Virus record (IMG/VR): IMGVR_UViG_3300025383_000020
Length of the DNA stretch: 64,000 nt
Reading direction: 5' to 3' (one strand)
From: an uncultured virus (IMG/VR IMGVR_UViG_3300025383_000020)
Lineage: Duplodnaviria > Heunggongvirae > Uroviricota > Caudoviricetes
Positions 8,592 through 63,383 of the stretch are shown piece after piece (position 1 is the stretch's first letter; each line of letters starts with the position of its first letter). The notes beneath the pieces were generated by a model that saw nothing but the letters and a program-made list of their open reading frames with translations, did no database searches and was not told the origin of the DNA. The translations under genes and the position numbers were made by a program.

Positions 8592-8620
8592 GCGATACAC
8601 TAAAAGTATATCGCTTATTG

Positions 8621-41909: not shown

Positions 41910-41982
41910 GGACCTGGCGCATAACGGCTGGTGTACCCGACTGTCTATCGGTGTTTAGAGGGTTCGACTCCCTTCAGGTCCG
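41910..41982 (+). tRNA. tRNA-Asp(GTC)
   Basis: cloverleaf, loop CTGTCTA. Confidence 0.88.
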
Positions 41983-42042
41983 CTAAAATACTTCACAGCA
42001 AAAGTCGTAAGTTCGAATGATAAATAATAAAAAGAAAGTATC

Positions 42043-42723
42043 ATGAAAACTTGCGAAAACTGTGGAAAAGATCACACTGGAGAATACGGAAGTGGTCGAT
42101 TTTGTTCTTTGAAATGCTCTAGGGGATTTAGTACTAAAGGTAAGAGAAGTGAAATCAATAAAAAGGTATCAGCTGCTCTTAGCAATAGTGGGAACACTCC
42201 AGTCAAAAAAAGTTGCAAGTTATGTAAGAATGAATTTGCTGTTGCTTGGAATAAGCGTAGGCAAATGTATTGTTCATCTTCATGCGCAGCAAAAGATATT
42301 GGTTGGAAAAATAGTCATTCTAAAATCTCAAAGAGCAAGTGGTCTGAAATAAACAAAAGATCTTATGCTTTAGGTAAAAATCGAATTGCTGGTGGAACTA
42401 CCAAGTGGCTCAATTACAAAGACATAAAAGTTCAAGGAACGTATGAACTCGCTGCTTGTAAAAAGCTAGATCTACTTAAAGAAAGAGGTGAAATTTTTAA
42501 ATGGGAATATGCAGTAAATCGAATATCCTATATAGGGATCGATAGAAAAAAGCACACATACTTAATTGATTTTACAGTTACACTACCTGATGGAAGTATT
42601 AAGTTCATCGAAGTTAAGGGAAGAGAAACTGATAATGATAAACTAAAGTGGAATGCGGTAAGAGAAGCGGGACATACTCTTGAAGTATGGAGAAAATTTG
42701 ATTTATTATCTAAAGTTCTTTAA
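42043..42723 (+). CDS. free-standing Zn-finger + PD-(D/E)XK endonuclease (homing-like)
   Basis: CENC/FCSLKC, CKLC/YCSSSC; YLIDF...FIEVKG; sits between tRNAs. Confidence 0.7.
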   Translation: MKTCENCGKDHTGEYGSGRFCSLKCSRGFSTKGKRSEINKKVSAALSNSGNTPVKKSCKLCKNEFAVAWNKRRQMYCSSSCAAKDIGWKNSHSKISKSKWSEINKRSYALGKNRIAGGTTKWLNYKDIKVQGTYELAACKKLDLLKERGEIFKWEYAVNRISYIGIDRKKHTYLIDFTVTLPDGSIKFIEVKGRETDNDKLKWNAVREAGHTLEVWRKFDLLSKVL

Positions 42724-42727
42724 AAAT

Positions 42728-42800
42728 GCCGAGATAGCTCAGTTGGTAGAGCGCAACACTCATAATGTTGAGGTAACGGGTTCAAACCCCGTTCTCGGTA
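42728..42800 (+). tRNA. tRNA-Met(CAT) elongator
   Basis: cloverleaf, CTCATAA loop. Confidence 0.88.
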
Positions 42801-42812
42801 CGAAAATAACAT

Positions 42813-42885
<73 letters not shown>

Positions 42886-42888
42886 CTA

Positions 42889-43053
42889 AGTCAGTAGTAA
42901 CGTGAGAGTTACTTCGAAATCCATTATCAGGACGGTGTCGGTGGTTCGAATCCATCTCTCCCCACTAAGAAGAAATTCTTAATTTTTAACTTGGGGAGAT
43001 AGCTCAGCTGGTAGAGCACGTAAAAGAAAAATCTCTCGCAACTTTCTCTGACT
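42889..43053 (+). ncRNA. Y RNA (YrlA-like) 1, permuted tRNA body
   Basis: conserved TAGTAAC..AGAGTTACTTC stem; T-arm precedes acceptor and D-arm; upstream of TROVE. Confidence 0.75.
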
Positions 43054-43092
43054 AATTTTTTAAAAGCTAGGAGAATTTAGTATTATCTACAC

Positions 43093-43470
43093 ATGGATAA
43101 TAATTTAAGAGAACTAAGCAACCAGTTGTTAGCGATGCCAAAACAAATGGCAGACACACAACTCATAATCTTGGAAAAGAGCCAAGAGGCTCAGAAGATC
43201 GAGAACGAGATCTCTGAGATCGAGACTAAACTGAAGATGTCTATAGCAAATAAGCTGGACGAAAGCGGTAAGAAAGTCTACTCAAATGCAGATGCTAGAG
43301 AAGCTGCATTCGTCGAAGCCTGTACTGGTGAGTTTGACCTAATTGAATTAAAGTCAAAACTAGCAGCCATACAAAATCAAATTCAATTGTCAAAGATTGC
43401 ATATGAGAGGGTCGGCAACGAACAAAAGAATCTAAGAATAGTGTTACAACTATTTTCAGAAGCGGAATAA
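43093..43470 (+). CDS. coiled-coil protein upstream of TROVE
   Basis: 125 aa, YSNADAREA. Confidence 0.6.
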   Translation: MDNNLRELSNQLLAMPKQMADTQLIILEKSQEAQKIENEISEIETKLKMSIANKLDESGKKVYSNADAREAAFVEACTGEFDLIELKSKLAAIQNQIQLSKIAYERVGNEQKNLRIVLQLFSEAE

Positions 43471-43563
43471 ATTTTTTCAATAAACTTGAAATAGCGACAA
43501 TAAACTTAGTAAGTTTATTAAACTAAATCAAGTTTACCAAATAAAAACCTTGTACTAAAAATT

Positions 43564-45189
43564 ATGGCAAAATTTAGAAACCAAAATCTTCGCAACACGC
43601 TCGCTGGTATGCAGCCTGATGCGAAGCTGGTTGAAGCAGCAACCCTGCCTAAGCCAGACACCAAGAACCGTCAAGGTCACGCAGCTTATTCTATGGATAA
43701 GTGGCTTCACCTCTTGACAATGCTAAACACTCTCAAACTCGAGAACCAGTTTTATCGTTCTGAAAACGAAACGATGAAAGAGCTCAAGGGTCTAGTGGAT
43801 GTTTGTGCAAAGGAAGACGCTTATCTAGTAGCACAGTGCATCGTGTATTCACGTTGCGTCGGTGAAGGTATGCGTTCAGTAAACCACCTAGCCGCAAGCT
43901 ACCTTGCACCACACTGTGCAGGAAAAGACTGGGCAAAGCGTTTCTACTCACTGTGGAACAAGAAGACTCAATCAGGCGGTACTATCTTCAGACCGGATGA
44001 CATGTCAGAAATTGTTGCTTGCTTCTCAGCAATGAACAAGACTGCTGTGACAAACGCAATGAAGAAAGGATTCAAGGATGCTCTTGAAAAGCTAGATGCA
44101 TACTCTCTATTGAAATACAAGGGAGATCTGATCGACGTTGCTAACCTAGTTCACCCTAACCCTAGCCTGTCAAAGGCAACGGCAAAGGTTGATAGCGAAA
44201 AGGTCTCAGTGCTTTCAGCGATCATGAAGGGCTTGCCAGTGTCAGCCGACACTTGGGAAGTTGCTCAGTCTGATGCAGGTCAAGAAGTTGCAAAGGCCGT
44301 AAAGGCAGGTAAGCTTACTGAAACTCAAGCGGAAAAAGTCCTAAAGGAAGCTAAGGCTGAAAACTGGAACGCTCTCTTGACAGAAGGAAAGCTGGGTATC
44401 CTTGCAGCACTTCGCAACATCAGAAACATCATAACAAATGATGCAAAGGCTGCGGCAATCACTGCACTATGCGATCTACTTTCTGATGGCGTAGCGATCC
44501 GTAAGGGAAAGATCATGCCGTACCAAATCGATATGGCTCACGAAGTCCTAACCTCTGAGTTCAGCAACATGGAATCTCGTAAGATCGCTCAAGCTCTTTT
44601 GAAGGGATACGAAGCGGCAGTGCCGAACCTAGCAGAAATGCTTCCTGGCAGAAACCTGATCATGGTTGACTTTTCTGGATCTATGGGTACACAAGTAGTC
44701 GATCCAAACAAGAAGACACGATACAAGAGCTCATGCTTGGATAAGGCAGCGCTGATTGCAGCAACGATAGCAAAAGCAACAAACGCGGATATTATTCGCT
44801 TTGGATCTGATGCAGAGTACGCTAAATACAATGCAAATGCAGACGTCTTCACTATTGCTAACGCAATGAAGAGAGACATGGGAGGAACAAGCCTTGAAAC
44901 TGCATGGAATGTAGCTCAAAGATCTGGCACAAAGTACGATAGAGTATTCATACTCTCAGATAACGAATGTAACCGTGGCTCAAGCTACAAGGCATACGAA
45001 AGATATGTCAAGGCATGCGGAAGCCCATACGTTTACTCAGTGGATCTAGCCGCATACGGAACAGCTCAACTCGCAGGAGATAAGGTTCGTTTCTACTACG
45101 GCTACGGATACTCAATGTTCGATGACATCGCGAAGAGCGAGTTCAACCCGAACTACCACCTCGAAAAGGTGAAGAAGATTGTGATCTAA
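43564..45189 (+). CDS. rsr: Ro60/Rsr TROVE-vWA RNA-binding protein
   Basis: NRQGH.AY, GMRSV, RPDDM, KYK, HP, TWE, AALRNIRN, vWA MIDAS VDFSGSM, GGT, ILSDNE. Confidence 0.9.
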   Translation: MAKFRNQNLRNTLAGMQPDAKLVEAATLPKPDTKNRQGHAAYSMDKWLHLLTMLNTLKLENQFYRSENETMKELKGLVDVCAKEDAYLVAQCIVYSRCVGEGMRSVNHLAASYLAPHCAGKDWAKRFYSLWNKKTQSGGTIFRPDDMSEIVACFSAMNKTAVTNAMKKGFKDALEKLDAYSLLKYKGDLIDVANLVHPNPSLSKATAKVDSEKVSVLSAIMKGLPVSADTWEVAQSDAGQEVAKAVKAGKLTETQAEKVLKEAKAENWNALLTEGKLGILAALRNIRNIITNDAKAAAITALCDLLSDGVAIRKGKIMPYQIDMAHEVLTSEFSNMESRKIAQALLKGYEAAVPNLAEMLPGRNLIMVDFSGSMGTQVVDPNKKTRYKSSCLDKAALIAATIAKATNADIIRFGSDAEYAKYNANADVFTIANAMKRDMGGTSLETAWNVAQRSGTKYDRVFILSDNECNRGSSYKAYERYVKACGSPYVYSVDLAAYGTAQLAGDKVRFYYGYGYSMFDDIAKSEFNPNYHLEKVKKIVI

Positions 45190-45273
45190 TCAGTCACAAC
45201 ACTAGACTGGGATGGAGGAGACTTCTACCCAGTCACAAAATGTCGAAAGACACAAAGTTCTTTGAAAGACATA

Positions 45274-45400
45274 ATCAGGTAGCAACGTAAGAGTTACTTC
45301 GTAGTGCAATTGGTAGCACAATTTTTTTGGGAAAAATGGGTTGCGGGTTCAATCCCCGTCGAGCGGCGAAAGCCGAATACTCTTACACTTTCCTCCTGAT
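45274..45400 (+). ncRNA. Y RNA-like 2, unpermuted D-AC(TGG)-T body
   Basis: ATCAGG/CCTGAT closing stem, shared motif, tRNA arms in normal order. Confidence 0.75.
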
Positions 45401-45409
45401 ATTTTATTA

Positions 45410-45550
45410 AAGACGTAGCAAGAATAGAGTTACTTCGCAATTATTGGTTCGAATCCAATATTTTCTCACTGGGAAAATTAGACAAATGGTTAAGTCGACA
45501 AATTCATAATTTGTTTTTCAGAAACAACGCTCTACTCATTTTCTCGTCTT
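45410..45550 (+). ncRNA. Y RNA-like 3, T-acceptor-D-AC(CAT) body
   Basis: AAGACG/CGTCTT closing stem, shared motif. Confidence 0.75.
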
Positions 45551-45559
45551 AAATTTATA

Positions 45560-45690
45560 AAACTGATAGCAATGGATAAGGTTACTTCGAAAATTAGCTC
45601 AGTTGGTTGAGCGTTTATATTCCAATAAAAGGTCATTGGTTCAACTCCAATATTTTCATCCAAACATACCTTACCGATTTTCTTCAGTTT
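45560..45690 (+). ncRNA. Y RNA-like 4, unpermuted body
   Basis: AAACTGA/TCAGTTT closing stem; TAAGGT/ACCTTA covariant helix. Confidence 0.75.
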
Positions 45691-45694
45691 ATTT

Positions 45695-45767
45695 GCGGAA
45701 GTAGCTCATTTGGTAGAGCGATAGCCTTCCAAGCTATAGGCGGCCGGTTCAAGCCCGGTCTTCCGCT
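45695..45767 (+). tRNA. tRNA-Gly(TCC)
   Basis: cloverleaf. Confidence 0.92.
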
Positions 45768-45808
45768 CTAGATAGTTTTGTACTTTGTTACAAACATCAA
45801 AATAACAT

Positions 45809-45881
45809 CGTGAGGTAGAGCAGTGGCCAGCTCGTTGGGCTCATAATCCAAAGGTCGTAGGTTCGAATCCTACCCTCGCAA
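45809..45881 (+). tRNA. tRNA-fMet(CAT) 2
   Basis: C1:A72, GGG/TCC stem. Confidence 0.85.
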
Positions 45882-45935
45882 CAACGGAGAGTAGACGTAA
45901 GTCTTCTAACAAAGAAGGGGTTTACTCAAAGACAT

Positions 45936-46080
45936 AAATCAGTAGTAACGTGAGAGTTACTTCAATATTTGACTATTAATCAGAAGGTCTGGGTTCGAAT
46001 CCCAGTGCGGAGAGCAATCTCAGTATGGTGTAAATGGCAGCATAAAAACGAAAAACCACTCTCGCAACTTTCTCTGATTT
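45936..46080 (+). ncRNA. Y RNA-like 5, AC-T-acceptor-D body
   Basis: AAATCAG/CTGATTT closing stem, stem nearly identical to copy 1. Confidence 0.75.
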
Positions 46081-46088
46081 TTTTAAAT

Positions 46089-46160
46089 GCCGCGTTCGTC
46101 TATCGGCTAGGACATCTCCCTTTCACGGAGGGAAGAGGGGTTCAACTCCCCTACGCGGTA
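46089..46160 (+). tRNA. tRNA-Glu(TTC)
   Basis: cloverleaf. Confidence 0.92.
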
Positions 46161-46165
46161 CTAAA

Positions 46166-46279
46166 TTAACTCACGGAGTTCGCTAGCAGATGGTAGAGAT
46201 GCAACTACCTGGGTGCAGCGGAGTTGACCAGATCAACATTGACCTATGATTTATCTAAAAAGCGGGCACCGTGAGTTAA
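46166..46279 (+). ncRNA. unassigned structured RNA
   Basis: 11-bp terminal stem TTAACTCACGG/CCGTGAGTTAA plus inner hairpins. Confidence 0.45.
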
Positions 46280-46294
46280 AAATAAAAAACCAAA

Positions 46295-46329
46295 AAGTGA
46301 AACTCTATTTGAGTTTGGTGTATAAATAA
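46295..46329 (+). promoter_or_regulatory. tRNA-block promoter (2)
   Basis: AAGTGAAACT-N15-GTATAAATAA. Confidence 0.7.
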
Positions 46330-46336
46330 TAAAGTA

Positions 46337-46512
46337 ATGAAAAACTATCGTAACATATCAAATCACTCATGCAGCTGGAATCACATTCCAACAGGAGTGA
46401 AGTTTGTGTCTACACTAAAATCAACTGGTGCAGGAAAAAACGAGGTTCGAATAAGTTAACAGTAAAAATAACTATATAGAGAACCTCGAACCACAAAAGT
46501 TCGAGGTTTTTT
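46337..46512 (+). promoter_or_regulatory. attenuator-like leader 2: 40-aa uORF plus terminator
   Basis: uORF 46337-46459; hairpin AACCTCGAAC/GTTCGAGGTT+T run; CGAGGTTC can pair with GAACCTCG. Confidence 0.6.
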
Positions 46513-46518
46513 GTTTAT

Positions 46519-46593
46519 AGTCTCTTAGCTCAGTTGGTTCAGAGCGGTTGCCTTACAAGCAATAGGTCAGGGGTTCGACTCCCTTAGGGACTA
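46519..46593 (+). tRNA. tRNA-Val(TAC)
   Basis: cloverleaf. Confidence 0.92.
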
Positions 46594-46678
46594 CTTAAAA
46601 GAAAGTAATTAAAAAAAATGAAGCGAAAGCGAAAATATAAACGGTAAGAGCACGTAGCCTTTGAGTTACGTGGTGAAT

Positions 46679-46752
46679 GACTTCGTAGCTCAGTTGGTAG
46701 CAGCAATACACTTTTAATGTATGGGTCGTTGGTTCAAATCCAACCGGAGTCA
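46679..46752 (+). tRNA. tRNA-Lys(TTT)
   Basis: cloverleaf. Confidence 0.9.
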
Positions 46753-46763
46753 CTGATTACAAT

Positions 46764-46835
46764 GCACCTATAGCTGAGCGGTAAAGCTGCGCCCTCTTAA
46801 GGCGATGATCCCAGCTTCAAATCCTGGTGGGTGCA
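46764..46835 (+). tRNA. tRNA-Lys(CTT)
   Basis: cloverleaf, slightly irregular T stem. Confidence 0.8.
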
Positions 46836-46858
46836 CACCATTAAAAACAAAGAGAGTC

Positions 46859-47365
46859 ATGATGAAGTTAAGCGATTTTAGAGTATTGGTTCTTAATGCA
46901 GATTATCAGCCTGTCAACATGACTTCTTTTAAGAAGGGCTGTAAGTTGGTCTACAAAGGAAAGGCAGAAGTTCTTACATTAGACGAAGAAAACAACCTGA
47001 CCTCTGCAGTGCTTACTGAGGTTCGACCAAAGGTAATTAGACTCTTGCAGTACATTTACCTTCCTCATCGGAAGATGAGCCTCACTAAGCAAAACATCTA
47101 CAAGCGCGACGGATATCGTTGTGGCTACTGTGGATCCAAAGATGAGTTGACAATCGACCACATCTTGCCTAAGTCCAGAGGAGGTAAAAATAGCTGGGAA
47201 AACCTAGTTACTTGTTGCTCAAAGTGCAACAGCAAAAAGGACAACCAGACCCCAGCTGAAGCTCGAATGAAATTGAGAGTTGAGCCACACGCGCCGACTT
47301 TCAAGAGCTTGATTGGGTTAAGTAAAGACTCAAGTCTCACTGACGCTCTAGTAGCTCAGTGGTAA
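46859..47365 (+). CDS. HNH endonuclease (McrA-like)
   Basis: VLVLNADY.P, RDGYRCGYCG, TIDHILP.SRGG..SWENLV.CC..CN..K; start reassigned past tRNA. Confidence 0.9.
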   Translation: MMKLSDFRVLVLNADYQPVNMTSFKKGCKLVYKGKAEVLTLDEENNLTSAVLTEVRPKVIRLLQYIYLPHRKMSLTKQNIYKRDGYRCGYCGSKDELTIDHILPKSRGGKNSWENLVTCCSKCNSKKDNQTPAEARMKLRVEPHAPTFKSLIGLSKDSSLTDALVAQW

Positions 47366-47442
47366 GTTAAGTGTCTTGCATGCTCTGATGAAATTCGACT
47401 GCAAGGTCTCGGTAGGCAGAACGCGTCTGAACCTACCCACAC

Positions 47443-47518
<76 letters not shown>

Positions 47519-47594
47519 AGCAAGGAAGTAGTTTGCAGAAAGTTGTGCCGTGTTCTGCTGATGAAATTAAACCCTTGTGACAACGGTGCAACCC

Positions 47595-47666
47595 GGTCAT
47601 ATAGCTCAGCGGGAGAGCGCTTCCTTGACGTGGAAGAAGTCGGTGGTTCAAATCCATCTGGGATCA
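47595..47666 (+). tRNA. tRNA-Val(GAC)
   Basis: cloverleaf, one acceptor mismatch. Confidence 0.82.
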
Positions 47667-47725
47667 CTAAGTCGCAGAAAGGTAACTCCAGTATTTGATT
47701 ACCGTTGCCCTCCTGCGACTCCACT

Positions 47726-47797
47726 GCCTCATTAGCTCAGTGGTAGAGCTGCTCATTTGTAATGAGCGGGTCGGCAGTTCGAATCTGTCATGAGGCT
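47726..47797 (+). tRNA. tRNA-Thr(TGT)
   Basis: cloverleaf. Confidence 0.92.
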
Positions 47798-47827
47798 CTC
47801 AAATAAAAAGTAATTTATTTTCACACA

Positions 47828-47862
47828 AAGTGAAACTCTTTAGTAAAATATTGTATAAATAA
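47828..47862 (+). promoter_or_regulatory. tRNA-block promoter (3), followed by 31-aa uORF 47887-47982
   Basis: AAGTGAAACT-N15-GTATAAATAA. Confidence 0.7.
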
Positions 47863-48083
47863 CTAAGACTATTAAAGTCAAACAAAATGAAAAAGCAAGC
47901 CTACATACGAATTTATAGACCGTGCCAACCGTTAGCATGGCAGCTAGGCTTGTCGAATCATAATTCACTAAGCCGATTCTGATCCCCTGGCCAGTGAATA
48001 TCTCAAATCCATAATTTTACACAACCGATTTTAGGAATGCACTGGCCTCTAGTAGGAAGGCTTAATAATGTTCTTTGAATATT

Positions 48084-48158
48084 GGTCCCTTAGCTCAGAT
48101 GGTTAGTAGCATCTGACTCATAATCAGAGGGTCACTGGTTCAAGTCCAGTAGGGACCA
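48084..48158 (+). tRNA. tRNA-Ile2/Met(CAT)
   Basis: cloverleaf; GGTCCCT acceptor resembles lysidine tRNA-Ile2. Confidence 0.85.
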
Positions 48159-48165
48159 CACATAT

Positions 48166-48247
48166 GGGTATACGCCGAAGTTGGAGAGTCGGGGCGGTCT
48201 GTAAAACCGTTGCATTAGCTGAACAGGTTCGAATCCTGTTATACTCA
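48166..48247 (+). tRNA. tRNA-Tyr(GTA)
   Basis: cloverleaf with long variable arm. Confidence 0.88.
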
Positions 48248-48252
48248 CACTT

Positions 48253-48330
48253 GGAAAGGTAGCGCAGTTGGTCAGTTCGCACCGGACTGAAAATCCGGCG
48301 ATGTGAGTTCGATTCTCACCCTTTCCACCA
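48253..48330 (+). tRNA. tRNA-Phe(GAA)
   Basis: cloverleaf, ACCA end. Confidence 0.9.
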
Positions 48331-48426
48331 ATCAGTATGGGTTAATTGCCTCGAGAGACGTCTCGATATAAAAACCGGTCTTCGCTTAGAAGATAGATGT
48401 TGGTCTGGAATCCAACTGCTGAATAC

Positions 48427-48499
48427 GGCCTTGTAGCTCAATGGATAGAGCATCTGACTACGGATCAGAAGGTTTAGGGTTCGAGTCCCTACGAGGTCA
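48427..48499 (+). tRNA. tRNA-Arg(ACG)
   Basis: cloverleaf. Confidence 0.92.
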
Positions 48500-48518
48500 C
48501 TAACGTTCTTTAACGAAT

Positions 48519-48600
48519 GCTCGGGTGGTGAAATAGGTAGACACGTCAGACTTAAACCCTGGTGGATTTTTCCGTGCGGGTTCGATTCCCGCCTCGAGTA
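48519..48600 (+). tRNA. tRNA-Leu(TAA)
   Basis: type II cloverleaf. Confidence 0.85.
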
Positions 48601-48605
48601 CTAAT

Positions 48606-48679
48606 GGTCCTGTAGCTCAGTTGGATAGAGCATCTCACTTCTAATGAGACGGTCGGGGGTTCGAATCCCTTCGGGACTA
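48606..48679 (+). tRNA. tRNA-Arg(TCT)
   Basis: cloverleaf. Confidence 0.92.
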
Positions 48680-48685
48680 CAAACT

Positions 48686-48769
48686 GCCTCGATGGCGGAA
48701 TCGGTAGACGCGTCGGTCTCAAAAACCGATCGAAGATAGTAGGTGCGGGTTCGATTCCCGCTCGAGGTA
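48686..48769 (+). tRNA. tRNA-Leu(CAA)
   Basis: type II cloverleaf. Confidence 0.9.
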
Positions 48770-49100
48770 CTGAAGATCTTTGAAATATTGGAACAAAAGA
48801 AATTGAAATGTTGCTGAAAGCACTTCAATGAAAAGTTAGAATGAAAGCTTTAGAGTCATTTGCAATAACACACGCAAAGGCTTTAAAAACCGCGAGCCGG
48901 ATGAAAGGTCCGGACAGGTTGCAGATGATGATACTGTTAGTAGGTCTAGCTAAGTAAAAGAAGGGAGTAAGTAACAGAGTAAGGCACATAGACTAATTAG
49001 TCTATAACACAGCGGACAGTGCACCGGCTTAGCATTTGCGTTTGGCGCCGGGGAGGTGGGTTCGAATCCCACTAGTCAAATTAAGTGATGTGTCAGTTAT

Positions 49101-49173
49101 CGGGATGTAGCTCAGTTGGTAGAGTACTCGGTTTGGGACCGAGACGCCGGAGGTTCGAGTCCTCTCATCCCGA
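49101..49173 (+). tRNA. tRNA-Pro(TGG)
   Basis: cloverleaf. Confidence 0.92.
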
Positions 49174-49176
49174 CTA

Positions 49177-49287
49177 AGGACTTAAATAAGCTGAGGTGGT
49201 AGAGAGTGCCATAGGTAAGTTGACGACGGTCGACTGAGAGAAGGGGTACTACACGGTGACGGACCTCTGTAAATGCTCAGCTGTCCT
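49177..49287 (+). ncRNA. unassigned structured RNA
   Basis: AGGAC/GTCCT and AGCTGAG/CTCAGCT stems, AGTTGAC-GACG-GTCGACT hairpin. Confidence 0.4.
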
Positions 49288-49291
49288 ACTT

Positions 49292-49371
49292 GCCCAGGTG
49301 GCGTAATGGCAGCCGCGCCAGACTTAGGATCTGGTGTCTTTGACGTGTCGGTTCGAGTCCGACCCTGGGTA
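49292..49371 (+). tRNA. tRNA-Leu(TAG)
   Basis: type II cloverleaf. Confidence 0.9.
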
Positions 49372-49377
49372 CAAAAT

Positions 49378-49458
49378 GTCCGGTGGCGAAATTGGTAGAC
49401 GCACCATCATGAGGAGGTGGCGGTTTTTATCGTGCGGGTTCGAATCCCGCTTCGGACA
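49378..49458 (+). tRNA. tRNA-Leu(GAG)
   Basis: type II cloverleaf, irregular acceptor, loop ATGAGGA. Confidence 0.75.
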
Positions 49459-49576
49459 CAAGATCTAATAGTGTAAACGCGTAGCGGCCGACACATGATG
49501 GTTCGTCCTTTTAGACGATAGAGTTAAACTCAGCCACATATAGGAACGATAAGGCCTCCTTAGATCAAAATAACAT

Positions 49577-49699
49577 GGGGAAGAATGCAAAACAAACACT
49601 TTGTCGCACATTCTTCGGAAACGATAGCAACAGATAGAGTTACTTCGCAATCAATCTGTAAAATTGACGTTTGGTATTGAGAGATACCCTTCCCCACCA
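49577..49699 (+). ncRNA. tRNA-Tyr-like RNA with Y-RNA stem replacing D-arm (Y RNA-like 6)
   Basis: GGGGAAG/CTTCCCC-ACCA; TCAAT-CTGTAAA-ATTGA; Y motif closed by TCG-GAAA-CGA. Confidence 0.7.
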
Positions 49700-49700
49700 T

Positions 49701-49771
49701 GGTCTTGTGGCCGAGTGATTAGGCGCAGCTCTGCAAAAGCTGATACACTGGTTTGATCCCAGTCGAGACCT
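49701..49771 (+). tRNA. tRNA-Cys(GCA)
   Basis: cloverleaf, U73. Confidence 0.85.
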
Positions 49772-49778
49772 CTTAAAT

Positions 49779-49849
49779 ACGTTCGTGGTGCAATGGTAGC
49801 ATACCGGTCTCCAAAACCGTTGATGGGGGTTCGAATCCCTCCGTTCGTG
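49779..49849 (+). tRNA. tRNA-Trp(CCA)
   Basis: cloverleaf, two T:T acceptor mismatches. Confidence 0.82.
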
Positions 49850-49862
49850 CAAAAAATAAATT

Positions 49863-49937
49863 GGGTACATAGCTCAGAGGTAGAGCAATCGGCCGTTAAC
49901 CGATTGGCCGCAGGTTCGATCCCTGCTGTGCCCGCCA
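49863..49937 (+). tRNA. tRNA-Asn(GTT)
   Basis: cloverleaf, GCCA end, atypical C33. Confidence 0.85.
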
Positions 49938-49959
49938 ACGAATCTAGCGGATTCATAAT

Positions 49960-50030
49960 TGTCCCTTCGTCTAATGGCAGGACATCTGATTTTGGCTCAG
50001 ATAATTGAGGTTCGAATCCTTGAGGGACAA
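49960..50030 (+). tRNA. tRNA-Gln(TTG)
   Basis: cloverleaf, U1-A72. Confidence 0.9.
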
Positions 50031-50040
50031 CAATAACTAT

Positions 50041-50114
50041 GGGGAATTAGCTCACTTGGCTAGAGCGCCTGCTTTGCAAGCAGGAGGCAGCGAGTTCGAC
50101 TCTCGCATTCTCCA
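50041..50114 (+). tRNA. tRNA-Ala(TGC)
   Basis: cloverleaf, G3:U70. Confidence 0.93.
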
Positions 50115-50182
50115 CTTGAGGGAGGTGGGATGACCACCCAACGATTCAGCTCGTCACTGAGTCGGCTTCCCCAAAATAACTA

Positions 50183-50257
50183 GGACAAAAAGGTGTGGGG
50201 AGGATCGCACGCTGGGCTCGCAACCCAGAAGACTGGTTCGTGTCTCCAGTGAGTCCA
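50183..50257 (+). pseudogene. degenerate tRNA-like element (anticodon CGC)
   Basis: CTGGG-CTCGCAA-CCCAG arm, T-arm with 9-nt loop, weak acceptor GGAC/GTCC. Confidence 0.45.
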
Positions 50258-50260
50258 TAT

Positions 50261-50334
50261 AGGCAATTAGCTCATTTGGTTAGAGCGCCGATCTGATACG
50301 TCGGAGGTGCCCAGTTCGAGCCTGGGATTGCCTA
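50261..50334 (+). tRNA. tRNA-Ile(GAT)
   Basis: cloverleaf. Confidence 0.9.
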
Positions 50335-50350
50335 CTTAAAAACAAAAACA

Positions 50351-50806
50351 ATGTCACTAAAAGCAACAATCTATGCGGACTTTATGACTGCATTTAAAGC
50401 AAAAGAAGAAAAGGCAAAGTCTGCTCTGAGCATGCTGAAGGCAAAGATCACTGAAGCCGAAAAGGCAAATAAGAATCAGGAACTTACTGATGCTGAAGTG
50501 CTAAAGGTGATACTTGCTTCGGTGAAACAGAGAAAGCAATCGATCGGCGAATTTGAGAAGGGCGGCCGACCTGATCTTGTTGAAAAGGAGGCGGCAGAGC
50601 TCAAGGTTCTTGAAGCATACCTTCCAAAACAAATGTCTCGCGAAGAGATTGAGTCTGAATTGCGTACGATCCTACTTGGTTTTGGCGAAAAAGAACCGCA
50701 TAACAAAAAGGTGGGACAGAGCATGGGAATGTTCAATAAGAAGTTTCCAGGAATGGCTGACCCGAAGGTAGTACAAGAGGTCATAAATTCTCTGGTTGCT
50801 GCATAA
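50351..50806 (+). CDS. GatB/YqeY domain protein
   Basis: VKQRKQSI..F..GGR.DL..KE..EL.VL..YLP.QMS.EEI. Confidence 0.88.
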   Translation: MSLKATIYADFMTAFKAKEEKAKSALSMLKAKITEAEKANKNQELTDAEVLKVILASVKQRKQSIGEFEKGGRPDLVEKEAAELKVLEAYLPKQMSREEIESELRTILLGFGEKEPHNKKVGQSMGMFNKKFPGMADPKVVQEVINSLVAA

Positions 50807-50817
50807 AAATCAATAAT

Positions 50818-50900
50818 GGAGAGTGCCCGAATGGACGAGGAACCTGTCTTGAAAACAGCTGGGTGTAAAAGCTTTGGGGGTTCGATTCCCTCACTCTCCG
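50818..50900 (+). tRNA. tRNA-Ser(TGA)
   Basis: type II cloverleaf, G73. Confidence 0.88.
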
Positions 50901-50936
50901 CCGAAAACCAATAGTCATGGAAAAAAGATCTCCGAA

Positions 50937-51359
50937 ATGTCGGACGCTGAGTTTACTGCCTTTGCTGAAAAGGAAAAGGCTGAAATACAACTCGCTAAGA
51001 AAAAAGAGCTGCTCGATCGCTGGAATAATCTTCCTAGGTTCGATGAGGTGCACCAAGTTCCTATTCTGCCTCAGGTAGACGATCCAAGGGAATGGTCAGA
51101 GTTTTATGTAAAGAAACTCATCTCATCTGGAGCTATTCCCAAGGAGGCCCTAAAGGATGGAGAGCATTACGTGGGATCCCATCGCAGAGCGCAAGTCGCT
51201 CGATGGAATTCTGAAATGGGTCGATTTGAATACTGGAGAACCAAGTTCAACCAGACTTTCATCGACTACTGTAATCACTTTGAAGACGACGACGGGTTTT
51301 CTCTGTTTGTTCCAATTGGCACTGCCTCGAAAGATCAGTTTGAAAAGAACGAAATATAA
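50937..51359 (+). CDS. hypothetical protein
   Basis: start reassigned past tRNA-Ser. Confidence 0.55.
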   Translation: MSDAEFTAFAEKEKAEIQLAKKKELLDRWNNLPRFDEVHQVPILPQVDDPREWSEFYVKKLISSGAIPKEALKDGEHYVGSHRRAQVARWNSEMGRFEYWRTKFNQTFIDYCNHFEDDDGFSLFVPIGTASKDQFEKNEI

Positions 51360-51362
51360 TTT

Positions 51363-51451
51363 GGAAAGGTACTCAAGATGGCTTAAGAGGACGCTTTGCT
51401 AAAGCGTTAGGTCGGGTAACTGGCGCGTGGGTTCAAATCCCACTCTTTCCG
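51363..51451 (+). tRNA. tRNA-Ser(GCT)
   Basis: type II cloverleaf. Confidence 0.9.
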
Positions 51452-51515
51452 CAAAAAGACTGTTGATGTAGGCTGTCAGCCATAGAGGGGTGAGTCAAAC
51501 ATATTCCCTTCACAT

Positions 51516-51589
51516 GGAGTCATTAGCTCAATTGGTAGAGTGCCGGGTTGTGGTCCCGGAGGCAATGGGATCGAAGCCCATATGACTCC
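51516..51589 (+). tRNA. tRNA-His(GTG)
   Basis: G-1:C73, TTGTGGT loop. Confidence 0.87.
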
Positions 51590-60684: not shown

Positions 60685-61290
60685 TTATCGCCAGTCAAAC
60701 TTGAGAAAGTCGGCAAGATTATTCGGATAGTTCGGGTGATTTAGGGCAGCGTAACTCACATAAGAGTCTGGGTCCTTTGCAAGCTGGACTAGGATCTCGC
60801 CTGGAGAGTTAGGATTCCCAGCGACCAGGAGACGTACGTCAGCCAATCGGTCCCCTGCAAGCTGGGCTAGGGTCGATTGTTCCGCGTTCTGGTGATTGGC
60901 AACCACCAATCTTACATCAAAGTCAGCGTCCTTTGCCAGGAGGCCCAGCACCTCGCCTGGAGAGTTAGGATTCTTGGCGACCATTATTCGAACAAGGTCG
61001 GACGGATCCTCTGCAAGCTGGATTAGAGACTCGACTGGAGCGTTAGGGTTCTGAGCGACTCTTACTCGTACCTGAAGGTCAAAGTCAGTTGCCAGCACGG
61101 CAAGGACTTTCTTTGGTGTGTTCTGGTGATTCGCGACGCCTGATCTTATATCAGGATTTGAGTCTGCTGCAAGCTCGACAAGAGTCTTCGCTGGAGTGTT
61201 AGGATTCCTCACAAGAGCATTGAGATCATCTACCGGATTCACATTTGATTCGAGCAAAAATTGGGAATATGATTTGATATGCATCTGCAT
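60685..61290 (-). CDS. LRV/HEAT-like 24-aa repeat protein 1
   Basis: VA.NPN.P...L..LA.D....VR repeats. Confidence 0.85.
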   Translation of the reverse strand: MQMHIKSYSQFLLESNVNPVDDLNALVRNPNTPAKTLVELAADSNPDIRSGVANHQNTPKKVLAVLATDFDLQVRVRVAQNPNAPVESLIQLAEDPSDLVRIMVAKNPNSPGEVLGLLAKDADFDVRLVVANHQNAEQSTLAQLAGDRLADVRLLVAGNPNSPGEILVQLAKDPDSYVSYAALNHPNYPNNLADFLKFDWR

Positions 61291-61298
61291 AGAGTTAT

Positions 61299-61889
61299 TT
61301 ATCGCCAGTCAAACTTAAGCCAGTCAGCTAGATTATTAGGATAGTTCGGGTGTTCTTGAGCCGCCTGGCTCACTTTAGGCTGTAAATCCTTTGCTAGCTG
61401 AAGTAGGGTCTCGATAGGCACGTTAGGATTCTGGGCGACTCCCTTTCGTACACTCCATATAGCGTCCTTTGCTAGCTGAAGTAGCGTCTCGTCTGAAGTG
61501 TTAGAGTTACTGGCAACGTGCCATCTCACATAAGAGTCTGGGTCCTGTGACAGGAGGGCAAGGGTCTCCGATGACGTGTTGGGATTTTCAGCTATAGCCA
61601 CTCTCACTCTAGTGTCCTTTTCCTTTGAGAGCTGAAGTAGAGCCTCAGCTGGAGTTTTCGGGTTCCGGGCGACACATCGTCTCACTTTAATTTCAGGGTC
61701 CGCTGCAAGCTGGGCTAGAGCCTCAGCCGGAGCGTTCGGGTTCCAGACGACTTCTAGTCGTACCTCCAACTCAGGGTCCTGTGAAAGTTTCATTAGGACA
61801 TCGGCTGGAGCATTAGGGTCCCTGGCTAGTGCCCGGTCCGAGTCATATTTCTCTAGTAGTAAACTTGAGTAAGGTTTAACGTACTTCAT
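61299..61889 (-). CDS. LRV/HEAT-like repeat protein 2
   Basis: same repeat and C-terminal cap. Confidence 0.85.
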   Translation of the reverse strand: MKYVKPYSSLLLEKYDSDRALARDPNAPADVLMKLSQDPELEVRLEVVWNPNAPAEALAQLAADPEIKVRRCVARNPKTPAEALLQLSKEKDTRVRVAIAENPNTSSETLALLSQDPDSYVRWHVASNSNTSDETLLQLAKDAIWSVRKGVAQNPNVPIETLLQLAKDLQPKVSQAAQEHPNYPNNLADWLKFDWR

Positions 61890-61897
61890 AGAATTAT

Positions 61898-62608
61898 TTA
61901 TCGCCAGTCGAACTTGAGAAAATCCGCTAGATTATTAGGATAGTTCGGGTGGTTTTGAGCCAAGTGTCTCACAACAGAGTCTGGGTCCTTTGCCAACTGG
62001 AGTAGAGACTCGATAGGCGCGTTAGGGTTCCCGGAGACTGCAATTCTTATAGAACGATCTGAGTTCTGTGAAAGTTTCGCTAGGATCTCCACTGGAGTAT
62101 TAGGATTCTCGGCGACCATAAAACGCACGTCACTGTCGGCATCCCGTGTAAGGTCCACTAGGGTCTCGGCCGGAGTGTTCGGGTTATTGGCTACGCCCTG
62201 TCTCACTTCATCGTCTTCATCCTCTGCAAGTTTCACTAGGGTCTCGGCCGGAGTGTTCGGGTTTTCAGCGACTCTAAATCTCACTTTATAGTCTCCATCC
62301 TCTGCAAGTTCCACTAGGGTCTCGGAAGGGAGCTTGGGACTCTCGGCGACCTTTCTTACGACATCGGGGTCGGAGTCTCGTAAAAGTTTGACAAGGGTCC
62401 TGGGTTCAGTTGCTGGGTGCTTGGCGACCAACCAGCGAATCAAGGCCATGGGGCTGCTGGCCAGGTGGTGTAGGTCCTCGGCATCCACTCTTGGCGAATT
62501 GATAAACTCACGGATCTTGCCGAGCTCTTCGTCAGTTGGATTAGTGATATTGAACTCAAGGCGAGACTCAAGCAAAAATTGTGAATATGATTTGACGTGT
62601 AGCTTCAT
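61898..62608 (-). CDS. LRV/HEAT-like repeat protein 3
   Basis: same repeat and cap. Confidence 0.85.
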   Translation of the reverse strand: MKLHVKSYSQFLLESRLEFNITNPTDEELGKIREFINSPRVDAEDLHHLASSPMALIRWLVAKHPATEPRTLVKLLRDSDPDVVRKVAESPKLPSETLVELAEDGDYKVRFRVAENPNTPAETLVKLAEDEDDEVRQGVANNPNTPAETLVDLTRDADSDVRFMVAENPNTPVEILAKLSQNSDRSIRIAVSGNPNAPIESLLQLAKDPDSVVRHLAQNHPNYPNNLADFLKFDWR

Positions 62609-62619
62609 ATAAGATATAT

Positions 62620-63369: not shown

Positions 63370-63383
63370 ATAAGATATATTTA

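What the first reader, a model, noticed from the sequence alone, without database searches (positions are those of the whole stretch)
49577..49699. Possibly chargeable tRNA-Tyr/Y-RNA hybrid: Y stem circularly permuted into the D-arm
Seen: 7-bp acceptor GGGGAAG/CTTCCCC with discriminator A and encoded CCA; anticodon arm TCAAT-CTGTAAA-ATTGA (GTA); T-like arm GGTAT-TGAGAG-ATACC. In place of the D-arm, the Y-stem strands occur in reversed order (ACTTTGTCGCACATTCT first, then TAGCAACAGATAGAGTTACTTC), capped by TCG-GAAA-CGA. Known: GTA, A73 and G1-C72 are bacterial TyrRS identity elements. Inference: an aminoacylatable RNA that could carry Ro to synthetases, EF-Tu or ribosomes. A normal tRNA-Tyr exists separately at 48166.
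Basis: partly seen in the sequence, partly recalled or inferred. Interest (0 to 1): 0.88.

Follow-up and report, generated by a model that had tools for sequence, protein, structure and literature searches.

The report
Y RNA with tRNA ends
A conserved small RNA in a phage's cluster of tRNA genes joins the stem typical of the partner RNAs of the Ro60 protein to a tRNA-like body with tRNA-type ends, a layout I found described in no paper; whether it is ever charged with an amino acid is untested.

Summary
Window 49577-49699 (+) has a 7-bp acceptor stem, A73 and an encoded CCA. It also has a 5-bp arm with the 7-nt loop CTGTAAA and a T-position hairpin. Where a D arm should be, there is a long side arm capped by GAAA. 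That side arm is the same module (H1, TAGYAAY/...TTCT internal loop, H2, TACTTCG) that closes five ordinary YrlA-like RNAs flanking a Ro60 (TROVE) gene at 43564-45189. The element is a real family: 31 distinct members in phage and metagenome contigs, 96% of pair cells paired against 70% in shuffles, and 23 of 24 pairs with compensatory changes. Members sit in tRNA slots of tRNA arrays and share the arrays' U-1 and C74.

My reading is a Ro60-partner Y-like RNA with tRNA topology, excised and end-matured like a tRNA. Tyrosine charging is not supported as a family trait. The loop triplet varies (GTA, GTG, CAT, TGA and others), U33 is A in several copies, and CCA is encoded in only about half. The window's clade has lost the T-loop consensus and has neither a D arm nor a long variable arm. 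No expression, processing or Ro-binding data exist. It is a new variant of a known kind.

The parts
49577..49583 (+). acceptor-stem 5' strand GGGGAAG; the base before it (-1) is T
   Evidence: Pairs 7/7 with 49689-49695. The acceptor helix is 99.5% paired over 31 members, with changes on both sides at all 7 pairs.
49584..49597 (+). A-rich single-stranded linker where positions 8-9 and the D arm would lie
   Evidence: every member has an A-rich linker of variable length and sequence here. No D-type hairpin is present.
49598..49605 (+). H2' strand ACTTTGTC of the Y module
   Evidence: Pairs with 49633-49640. H2 is 97.3% paired with 6 of 6 modelled pairs covarying. Alignment-free duplex test.
49606..49614 (+). 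internal-loop strand GCACATTCT (the ...TTCT side)
   Evidence: Counterpart of AACTTTCT, ACTTTCCT and ...TTTTCT in the five ordinary Y-like RNAs. TTCT is kept in 18 of the first 19 family members listed; L027 has TTGT.
49615..49624 (+). H1 (TCG/CGA) capped by the GNRA tetraloop GAAA
   Evidence: H1 is 98.9% paired and 3 of 3 pairs covary. Caps are GAAA, GCAA, GTAA or GCGA.
49625..49632 (+). internal-loop strand TAGCAACA (the TAGYAAY motif)
   Evidence: The same motif occurs at 42895, 45280, 45416, 45567 and 45943.
49633..49640 (+). H2 strand GATAGAGT
   Evidence: see H2' above.
49641..49650 (+). conserved TACTTCG followed by CAA. It lies where the Rfam YrlA model aligns its GNCGAA region in the neighbouring Y-like RNA.
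   Evidence: GTTACTTCG occurs exactly 5 times in the window, all in Y-like RNAs. YrlA alignment of 42911-43045.
49651..49667 (+). anticodon-type arm TCAAT-CTGTAAA-ATTGA (triplet GTA at 49658-49660)
   Evidence: The helix is 96% paired and 5 of 5 pairs covary. The loop is identical to that of the phage's tRNA-Tyr at 48166-48248.
49668..49672 (+). 5-nt variable region CGTTT
49673..49688 (+). T-position hairpin GGTAT-TGAGAG-ATACC, with no T-loop consensus
   Evidence: 20 of 31 relatives have a 5-bp stem with a 7-nt loop here, 18 of them starting TTC. The window clade (7 members) does not.
49689..49699 (+). acceptor 3' strand CTTCCCC, discriminator A, encoded CCA. tRNA-Cys starts 2 nt later, at 49701.
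43564..45189 (+). Ro60-like (TROVE + vWA) protein gene, the presumed protein partner
   Evidence: Pfam TROVE 27.3 bits (cut-off 23). PHROG 850 at E 1.6e-34. A profile of 10 phage orthologues hits PDB TROVE proteins 9kop/9l5y at E 7e-26, Ro60 1yvp at 4e-9 and Rsr 2nvo at 1.6e-8.
42890..43052 (+). ordinary Y-like RNA (ends paired in H1; tRNA-like domain with a closed acceptor stem)
   Evidence: Rfam YrlA 32.3 bits, E 1.6e-5, below the gathering score of 69.
45275..45687 (+). three tandem ordinary Y-like RNAs (45275-45399, 45412-45548, 45563-45687) just after the Ro60 gene
45938..46078 (+). fifth ordinary Y-like RNA

Best explanation
The element is a roughly 123-nt non-coding RNA that is a Y RNA in function and a tRNA in topology.

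Shown: it is a conserved, covarying four-way structure. The arms are a 7-bp acceptor stem with free ends, a long side arm, an anticodon-type hairpin and a T-position hairpin. The side arm is the same module that forms the terminal stem of the five ordinary YrlA-like RNAs beside the phage's Ro60 gene, but here its distal end is closed by a GNRA tetraloop and the RNA ends lie in the acceptor stem. Relatives occupy ordinary tRNA slots in tRNA arrays.

Inferred: it is transcribed with the tRNA array. Its 5' end is cut by host RNase P (U-1, acceptor/T minihelix). Its 3' end is matured like its tRNA neighbours (C74; CCA is encoded in this copy). The side arm then binds phage Ro60, while the tRNA-like half serves as the effector and stability domain, as proposed for YrlA.

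The encoded CCA in the window clade may compensate for the lost T-loop and D-loop elbow that CCA-adding enzymes read. This last point is inference from general knowledge.
For: 1. Same module as the ordinary Y-like RNAs. H1, TAGYAAY, H2 and TACTTCG on one strand and H2'...TTCT and H1' on the other were verified base by base for all six copies in the window, with different helix sequences in each.

2. Ro60 linkage.
- The gene at 43564-45189 is a TROVE/Ro60 homologue.
- 12 of 37 Ro-anchored loci carry a model match at E <= 1.4e-6 on the Ro strand, some 240-600 nt upstream of Ro.
- In a Ro-blind pattern scan, 21 loci held model matches. Ro lies within 6 kb in 12 of them and on the same contig in 3 more.
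- The 5'-strand motif occurs 124 times on the Ro strand against 21 on the other strand in 609 kb around Ro genes.

3. Structure. 96.3% of cells are paired against 69.9% in shuffles, and 23 of 24 pairs are compensatory. H2 cognate and non-cognate duplex energies differ, with 0 of 10000 permutations reaching the observed value.

4. tRNA-like processing context.
- The RNA sits in tRNA slots: Lys|RNA|Val in L003, Trp|RNA|Arg in L002 (5-nt spacers), Pro|RNA|Gly in L022 (4 and 1 nt), and RNA|Cys in the window (1 nt).
- The -1 base is T in 25 of 29 in-register members, against 27 of 31 window tRNAs.
- The first base after N73 is C in 28 of 29 members, against 31 of 31 tRNAs.
- No promoter or terminator signal above chance lies around it.

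5. Precedent. M. smegmatis YrlA, which has a 7-bp acceptor stem, is cut by RNase P and CCA-tailed while bound to Rsr (PMC4201824, section 8 read). Thermus phage phiLo Ro60 binds phage-encoded Y-like RNAs and host PNPase (PMC12135203, passages read).
Against: - There are no data on expression, ends or Ro binding. Four metatranscriptome runs covered only neighbouring conserved tRNA parts.
- The window copy's H2 and anticodon-type arm are not in its MFE fold (p about 0.1). H2 is in the MFE of only 13 of 30 members.
- RNAalifold on a naive alignment recovers only two helices.
- The Rfam YrlA model does not hit the element at E <= 10. The published Ro-contact motif GNCGAA/CGAA is only approximated here (TTCGCAA).
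- The element is dispensable. The close relative L001 (Ro 79% identical; record 81% complete) has tRNA-Leu(gag) directly followed by tRNA-Cys and no model match in the whole record.
- The Ro linkage partly reflects how the loci were collected. Six of the 21 Ro-blind loci show no Ro, though all six are fragments.
Confidence: 0.6

Rival explanations
1. Chargeable tRNA-Tyr mimic. Host TyrRS tyrosylates the CCA end using A73, G1-C72 and G34-U35. The charged RNA then brings Ro60 to EF-Tu or the ribosome, or is protected by charging.
For: - All 8 GTA copies I read (window, L003, L022, L523, L364, L002, L601, L622) keep G1-C72 and A73. Seven of the 8 encode CCA (L622 has TCA), while their arm stems differ.
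- The loop CTGTAAA equals that of the phage's own tRNA-Tyr.
- CCA is encoded in 15 of 29 members against 3 of 31 window tRNAs.
- Chen et al. raised possible aminoacylation of RNase P-cut M. smegmatis YrlA (PMC4201824, passages read).
Against: - The triplet is not conserved across the family, and paralogues on one contig differ (L354: CAT, GTG, TTC; L350: CAT, TGA).
- N73 does not follow the triplet as tRNA identity rules (recalled) would predict: GTG comes with A or T, and GCA with G.
- Position 33 is A in 4 of the 8 GTA copies.
- There is no D arm and no long variable arm, and the T-loop consensus is lost in exactly the window clade.
- Neither ARAGORN nor the Rfam tRNA model calls it.
- No phage TyrRS/TrpRS-family gene was found in 5 related records.
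Confidence: 0.1
2. Bait or decoy. The anticodon-type arm mimics particular tRNAs so that anticodon-loop-directed host enzymes (defence nucleases, modification enzymes) bind it. It either soaks them up or brings Ro60 and an exonuclease or repair enzyme to them. The varied triplets reflect varied targets.
For: - The loops keep the anticodon-loop signature (T at 33 in 19 of 25, A at 37 in 20 of 25) while the triplet varies. Contigs carry 2-3 paralogues with different triplets.
- Phage tRNA arrays and Ro-type proteins have been linked to conflict systems: a Ro60-like Bas63 gp130 counters the Ppl defence and lies next to tRNA genes (PMC11482910, passages read); the ROT/TROVE protein plus a tRNA-like partner is viewed as a repair platform (PMC7824862, passage read); Septu cleaves tRNA-Tyr (PMC13096335, abstract only).
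- RNA_ligase-family genes are present in 5 of 5 related phage records.
Against: - The idea is purely circumstantial, and no nuclease or target is identified.
- Many loops contain GNRA-type tetrads (GTAA, GTGA, GAAA, GCAA), so the variation may reflect a structural motif rather than an anticodon (my reading).
- No RtcB was found in the 5 records.
Confidence: 0.12
3. The side arm binds a factor other than Ro60, such as a product of the small neighbouring ORFs or a host protein. The Ro60 linkage is only genomic neighbourhood.
For: Ro binding is not shown for any RNA of this phage group. The Ro-contact motif of known Y RNAs is only partly present. ORFs 42043-42723 and 43093-43470 beside the Y-like RNAs have no clear function.
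Against: The module flanks Ro genes that are only 36-80% identical across many contigs and lies on the same strand. One ordinary copy scores as YrlA at E 1.6e-5. Ro-Y RNA pairing is the rule wherever it has been tested (PMC4201824, PMC12135203).
Confidence: 0.08
4. It is a decaying tRNA gene with an inserted sequence and has no function of its own.
For: The T loop is degenerate, the D arm is missing, and a close relative lacks the element.
Against: There are 31 distinct members with compensatory changes in every helix, including the side arm. There is one copy in each of three complete phage genomes. It is retained across Ro proteins down to 36% identity.
Confidence: 0.03

Closest known systems
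YrlA (Y RNA-like A; Rfam RF02553; Chen et al. 2014, PMC4201824; structure preprint bioRxiv 10.1101/312249)
   Same: It is encoded by a Ro60 gene on the same strand. It is modular: a bulged or looped stem for Ro plus a tRNA-like domain. Five ordinary RNAs of that layout lie in this window, and one scores 32.3 bits against the YrlA model.
   Different: In YrlA the RNA ends pair to form the Ro stem and the acceptor stem is a closed loop. [quoted passage not shown] Here the ends are in the acceptor stem with an encoded CCA, the Ro-type stem is capped, an anticodon-type loop is present and the D arm is missing. The YrlA model gives no hit on it.
[quoted passage not shown]
   Same: It is a Ro-bound Y RNA whose tRNA-like domain acquires tRNA-type 5' and 3'-CCA ends and has a 7-bp acceptor stem.
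   Different: There the ends arise by cutting a closed acceptor loop, which gives two RNA halves held by the open Ro stem. Here a single chain is encoded in that topology, the Ro-type stem is closed by GNRA, and the gene sits in a tRNA array.
Thermus phage phiLo Ro60 with Yrl1/Yrl2 (PMC12135203; PDB 9KOP, 9L5Y)
   Same: A phage Ro60 with phage-encoded Y-like RNAs next to its gene. The Ro profile of this phage group hits 9kop/9l5y best, at E 7e-26.
   Different: Yrl1 and Yrl2 are described as a 5'-3' stem flanking a bulge with a CGAA motif. The passages I read mention no tRNA-type ends or anticodon-type arm.
Chargeable tRNA mimics: tmRNA and viral tRNA-like structures (recalled; mentioned in bioRxiv 10.1101/312249)
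   Same: Free acceptor end with CCA, an acceptor/T minihelix, a reduced or missing D arm, and a large extra domain grafted onto the tRNA-like core.
   Different: Those are shown to be aminoacylated and have defined identity elements (recalled, not checked here). Here nothing is shown, and the extra domain is a Y-RNA stem. A tmRNA of the usual kind is separately present at 8620-9035.
Circularly permuted tRNA genes of algae and archaea (PMC3978253, search listing only; discussed in bioRxiv 10.1101/312249)
   Same: The relation between this RNA and the ordinary Y-like RNAs is a change of where the chain ends lie on one and the same set of helices.
   Different: Those are processed back into ordinary tRNAs. 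Here both topologies appear to exist as separate genes.

Membership tests
Y RNA / YrlA | Encoded close to a Ro60/Rsr gene and on the same strand (Chen 2014: best matches lie within 4 kb) | tested here: met
   Same strand, 4.4 kb downstream of the Ro60 stop in the window. It lies 240-600 nt upstream of Ro in L003/4/6, L034 and L035.
Y RNA / YrlA | Scores at or above the Rfam RF02553 gathering threshold (69 bits) | tested here: not met
   No YrlA match overlaps 49577-49699 even at E <= 10. The ordinary neighbour 42911-43045 reaches 32.3 bits.
Y RNA / YrlA | The 5' and 3' ends pair to form the Ro-binding stem | tested here: not met
   The ends pair as an acceptor stem, and the Y-type stem is closed by GAAA.
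Y RNA / YrlA | GNCGAA(N)G / CGAA motif in the 5' strand of the stem | tested here: inconclusive
   The element has TTCGCAA. Ordinary copies in the window have TTCGAAA, TTCGTAG, TTCGCAA and TTCAATA. The YrlA model aligns its motif region to ACTTCGAAAT.
Y RNA / YrlA | tRNA-like domain with conserved T and D stem-loops | tested here: not met
   There is no D arm, and the T-position hairpin loop TGAGAG lacks the consensus. 20 of 31 relatives keep a 5-bp/7-nt T arm, and a subgroup of 4 has a D-like arm.
Y RNA / YrlA | Bound by Ro60 | not testable with these tools
   It needs a pull-down or EMSA.
tRNA (tRNA-Tyr) | Recognised as a tRNA by ARAGORN or Rfam RF00005 | tested here: not met
   Neither calls it, although 31-32 neighbours are called.
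tRNA (tRNA-Tyr) | 7-bp acceptor stem, discriminator and 3' CCA | tested here: met
   A73 and CCA are encoded.
tRNA (tRNA-Tyr) | 7-nt anticodon loop with U33, R37 and GUA | tested here: met
   CTGTAAA on a 5-bp stem. Four of the 8 GTA relatives have A33.
tRNA (tRNA-Tyr) | D arm and T loop forming the elbow | tested here: not met
tRNA (tRNA-Tyr) | Long variable arm of bacterial tRNA-Tyr (recalled rule) | tested here: not met
   The variable region is 5 nt. The phage's own tRNA-Tyr is 82 nt in Rfam's coordinates.
tRNA (tRNA-Tyr) | Aminoacylation and use in translation | not testable with these tools
   It needs charging assays.

The most novel reading that the evidence does not exclude
These RNAs are genuinely aminoacylated or otherwise read through their anticodon-type loops. 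Phages would then deploy a set of Ro60-tethering 'tRNAs' with different anticodons (Tyr-type in this window). Each would couple Ro60, and an attached exonuclease or repair enzyme, to one synthetase, one codon or one anticodon-directed defence nuclease. They would also be living intermediates between tRNAs and Y RNAs.
Probability: 0.1. Interest if true: 0.9.

Novelty: new variant of a known kind. Interest (0 to 1): 0.66.

Why it matters
Bacterial Y RNAs of the YrlA type are described as tRNA mimics that lack a free CCA end and an anticodon loop, and what their tRNA-like half binds is still unknown. This family supplies a natural version with both features, encoded in tRNA arrays next to phage Ro60 genes.

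That makes three open questions directly testable:
- whether Y RNAs are made and protected by the tRNA-processing machinery;
- whether any Y RNA meets synthetases, EF-Tu or anticodon-directed enzymes;
- how Y RNAs arose from tRNAs.

It also warns annotators that gaps in phage tRNA arrays can hold tRNA-ended non-coding RNAs that tRNA finders and Rfam miss. My four full-text searches found no paper describing a Y-type stem inside a tRNA-ended RNA. The library lacks most subscription journals, and I could not open the 2020 Annual Review on bacterial Ro60.

Tried and rejected
- **Expression.** One run search and one lay of four metatranscriptome runs. Their contigs matched only conserved parts of tRNA-Trp and tRNA-Asn from other organisms. 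This says nothing about the element.
- **Naive alignment.** RNAalifold on a MAFFT alignment of 14 members gave only the acceptor stem and H1, because MAFFT puts the variable-length strands out of register. I therefore relied on the model-fitted alignment with its controls and on an alignment-free duplex test.
- **Longer pattern in other collections.** In genome contigs it gave 0 family members among the 121 rows kept. In metagenome contigs it gave 11 among 118.
- **Close phage records.** blastn against GenBank phages found only tRNA-level matches.
- **Single-sequence Ro search.** phmmer of the Ro protein against PDB found nothing. The profile did.
- **The window's own assembly.** It is not held. 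The nearest record, G001, is a 32-kb fragment without the region.
- **Simple permutation as origin.** I considered the element an exact circular permutation of the ordinary YrlA-like RNAs. The order of elements from TAGYAAY to the acceptor 3' strand is collinear. However, four relatives carry a D-like arm 3' of the side arm, not 5' of it as a simple permutation predicts. The origin, permutation or insertion of the module into a tRNA gene, stays open.
- **The triplet as a true anticodon.** Many loops contain GNRA-type tetrads, so I do not treat the triplet as established.
- **Complex prediction.** Not used: it takes proteins only.
Full report
**What the window is.** It is part of a large phage from freshwater metagenomes. 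It carries a T4-type large terminase (11775-13751), a tmRNA (8620-9035, minus strand), thymidylate synthase, a ligase and sigma factors. An array of 32 ARAGORN-called tRNA genes runs from 41.9 to 51.6 kb on the + strand. G+C is about 0.36-0.51. No close relative is in GenBank phages, and the window's own assembly is not held.

**The Ro60 gene.** ORF 43564-45189 (+) is a Ro60 homologue. Pfam TROVE scores 27.3 bits (cut-off 23) with a sub-threshold Ro60 vWA match. PHROG 850 'RNA-binding protein' scores E 1.6e-34. A profile of ten orthologues from related contigs (A5) matches PDB TROVE proteins 9kop/9l5y at E 7e-26. According to PMC12135203 these are the Ro60 of Thermus phage phiLo. The profile also matches Xenopus Ro60 (1yvp, 4e-9), human RO60 (9nen, 1.1e-8) and D. 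radiodurans Rsr (2nvo, 1.6e-8).

**The observation.** The element lies between tRNA-Leu(gag) (49378-49459) and tRNA-Cys (49701-49772). Its CCA ends 1 nt before tRNA-Cys. ARAGORN, the Rfam tRNA model and the Rfam YrlA model do not call it, even at E <= 10.

**The Y module.**
- GTTACTTCG occurs exactly five times in the window, and a one-mismatch sixth copy (45956) also lies in a Y-like RNA.
- Reading these places and checking them by script shows five ordinary Y-like RNAs: 42890-43052, 45275-45399, 45412-45548, 45563-45687 and 45938-46078.
- Each has the plan 5'-H1-TAGYAAY(n)-H2-T(T)ACTTCG ... tRNA-like domain ... H2'-(n)TTTCT or TTCCT-H1'-3'.
- H1 and H2 differ in sequence between copies but are fully complementary within each copy.
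- The copy at 42911-43045 is the only one that the Rfam YrlA model scores (32.3 bits, E 1.6e-5, gathering score 69).
- In the finding the same pieces occur in the order H2' (ACTTTGTC), loop strand GCACATTCT, H1' (TCG), GAAA, H1 (CGA), loop strand TAGCAACA, H2 (GATAGAGT), TACTTCG.
One correction: ACTTTGTC is the H2 partner, and the loop strand is GCACATTCT.

**Relatives.**
- The Ro60 protein retrieved 37 loci from IMG/VR, 36-81% identical.
- blastn with the element found four kinds of homologue.
- A covariance model (R1) built from three of them matched the window and 12 of the 37 loci at E <= 1.4e-6, always on the Ro strand.
- A junction pattern that ignores Ro found 74 loci in IMG/VR. 21 of them held 25 model matches.
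- Ro60 lies within 6 kb in 12 of those 21. It lies on the same contig in three more: L359 and L340 are the contigs of L017 and L037, and L350's record has Ro 12 kb away. The other six are fragments of 11-15% estimated completeness or lie at contig ends.
- The same pattern gave 11 members among 118 metagenome rows and none among 121 bacterial-genome rows.
- Altogether 31 distinct members align to the model (A6).
- Three complete phage genomes carry exactly one copy each. L001's 207-kb record (81% complete) carries none.

**Structure.**
- On A6, 96.3% of 701 pair cells are standard pairs against 69.9% in shuffles (0 of 500 reach it). 23 of 24 pairs change on both sides, and sliding the partners gives 43-53% (the 19-member set is).
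- By helix: acceptor 99.5%, H2 97.3%, H1 98.9%, anticodon-type arm 96.0%. The three modelled T-position pairs reach 82.7%.
- Because A6 is fitted to the model, I added a test that uses no alignment. The 14 nt before the loop strand and the bases after TAGYAA form a duplex of -6.64 kcal/mol on average within a sequence, against -3.36 between sequences. None of 10000 permutations reach that value.
- Against this, single-sequence MFE folds contain the acceptor in 27 of 30, the T hairpin in 28, an anticodon-type hairpin in 21, H1 in 17 and H2 in only 13.
- For the window copy the proposed fold is 2.8 kcal/mol above the MFE (the MFE z-score is -2.72).
- RNAalifold on a naive MAFFT alignment finds only the acceptor and H1.
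- H2 usually carries a mid-helix mismatch or bulge (my reading). That would fit a protein-stabilised helix, but this is inference.

**tRNA-like context.**
- Members sit in tRNA slots: tRNA-Lys 9561-9636 | RNA 9641-9761 | tRNA-Val in L003; tRNA-Trp | RNA | tRNA-Arg with 5-nt spacers in L002; tRNA-Pro | RNA | tRNA-Gly with 4- and 1-nt spacers in L022.
- Among the window's 31 Rfam-called tRNAs the base before position 1 is T in 27. The base after the discriminator is C in 31. A full CCA is encoded in only 3.
- Among the 29 family members that the model placed in register, the -1 base is T in 25, the first tail base is C in 28 and CCA is encoded in 15. N73 is A in 20, G in 7 and T in 2. Two rows (L539, L593:271) are out of register by a few bases and were left out of these counts.
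- No promoter- or terminator-like site above chance surrounds the element.
- Together this argues that the RNA is released and end-matured by the machinery that handles its neighbours. That is inference; no ends have been observed.

**Variation that bears on function.**
- A 5-bp stem with a 7-nt loop at the T position is present in 20 of 31 members, 18 with loops starting TTC. Seven members, including the window copy, have a plain hairpin there.
- An automatic parse found a perfect stem of at least 4 bp with a 7-nt loop in 25 of 31. Position 33 is T in 19 and A in 5. Position 37 is A in 20.
- The 34-36 triplet is GTA in 7 (8 with L364, read by eye), CAT in 4, GTG in 3, TGA in 2, TGG in 2, with several singletons. 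A few of these picks are other hairpins.
- Contigs with several copies carry different triplets: L350 has CAT and TGA; L354 has CAT, GTG and TTC.
- Four members (L593:271-404, L604, L608, L613:235-366) have, after TACTTCG, a hairpin GCNG-AWTGGYT-CNGC with one compensatory change, followed by the anticodon-type arm and a canonical T arm. That is a full cloverleaf plus the Y arm between acceptor and D stems.
It argues against a simple circular permutation of the ordinary YrlA-like layout as the origin.
- In L001, whose array is otherwise syntenic, tRNA-Leu(gag) is followed after 5 nt by tRNA-Cys, so the element comes and goes.

**Other gene content.** In five related phage records (three complete) I found no TyrRS/TrpRS-family gene, no RtcB and no CCA-adding-enzyme family gene, with positive controls ringing. 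An RNA_ligase-family gene is present in all five, above the cut-off in three.

**Comparison with what is known.**
- Chen et al. 2014 (PMC4201824; abstract, passages and section 8 read) found YrlA RNAs beside Ro60 genes in 254 bacteria and 22 phages. They showed tRNA-type modifications. They also showed that M. smegmatis YrlA, which has a 7-bp acceptor stem, is cut by RNase P and CCA-tailed while bound to Rsr.
[quoted passage not shown] It discusses an origin from tRNA.
- PMC12135203 (passages read) shows a phage Ro60 binding phage Y-like RNAs and host PNPase.
- PMC11482910 (passage read) speculates that some 'tRNA genes' next to a Ro60-like gene of phage Bas63 may be Y RNAs.
- None of these, and none of my four searches, describes a Y-type stem carried as a capped side arm by an RNA with tRNA ends.
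I did not check it.

**Verdict.** It works like a Y RNA (YrlA type), but it fails several defining features of that family as modelled. It is not a tRNA by any detector. I file it as a new variant of the tRNA-like Y RNAs.

Processing by the tRNA machinery and binding to Ro60 are well-grounded inferences (confidence about 0.6 for the whole mechanism). Tyrosylation remains possible for the GTA clade, but what can be seen does not favour it (about 0.1).

Noticed in passing
window 42890-43052, 45275-45399, 45412-45548, 45563-45687, 45938-46078 (+): Five ordinary Y-like RNAs flank the Ro60 gene, three of them in tandem with 12-14-nt spacers. Their tRNA-like domains differ in layout. Two (42890, 45938) have the acceptor closed by a loop, as in YrlA. 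Two (45275, 45563) have a tRNA-like domain nested with its acceptor stem continuing the Y stem. ARAGORN calls part of one 'tRNA-???' (45588-45662), and Rfam tRNA hits 45299-45362 and 45472-45545.
   Followed up: partly
L593:271-404, L604:232-367, L608:235-367, L613:235-366: A subgroup of the family keeps a D-like arm (GCNG-AWTGGYT-CNGC, one compensatory change) after the Y arm. This gives a five-armed RNA: a full cloverleaf plus the Y stem.
   Followed up: partly
L350 (3659-3779, 3816-3940), L354 (4379-4525, 5943-6074, 6193-6317), L593, L598, L613: Some contigs carry two or three copies of the tRNA-ended Y-like RNA, often in tandem, with different loop triplets.
   Followed up: partly
window tRNA array 41910-51589: All 31 Rfam-called tRNAs have C right after the discriminator, but only 3 encode CCA. 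27 of 31 have T at -1. This is a uniform 3' trailer rule for the whole array.
   Followed up: yes
window 49460-49576: The 117-nt spacer just upstream of the element is 78% identical over 102 nt to a stretch in L009/L010, where it precedes a tRNA-Met. It contains GATAGAGTTA, also found in the element. Its function is unknown.
   Followed up: partly
window 48998-49080: Rfam tRNA match (33.5 bits) that ARAGORN does not call. The other long gaps in the array (48771-48997, 49175-49291, 50116-50260) fold stably but had no blastn match in the fetched loci.
   Followed up: partly
L001 16372-16532: In the closest syntenic relative, tRNA-Leu(gag) is followed after 5 nt by tRNA-Cys. The element and its upstream spacer are absent, and no model match exists in that 207-kb record.
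   Followed up: yes
window 46805-47365 and 50351-50806 (+): An HNH endonuclease ORF and a YqeY-like (GatB/YqeY-type) ORF lie inside the tRNA array.
   Followed up: no
window 60685-63998 (-): Five consecutive ORFs made of LRV/HEAT-type repeats lie in a stretch of higher G+C (0.49-0.51).
   Followed up: no
G007, G009, G010 (related phage records): RNA_ligase-family (PF09414) genes score above the cut-off in three related phages. In G010 the gene lies 5 kb upstream of the tRNA-ended Y-like RNA. No RtcB or CCA-adding enzyme was found.
   Followed up: partly
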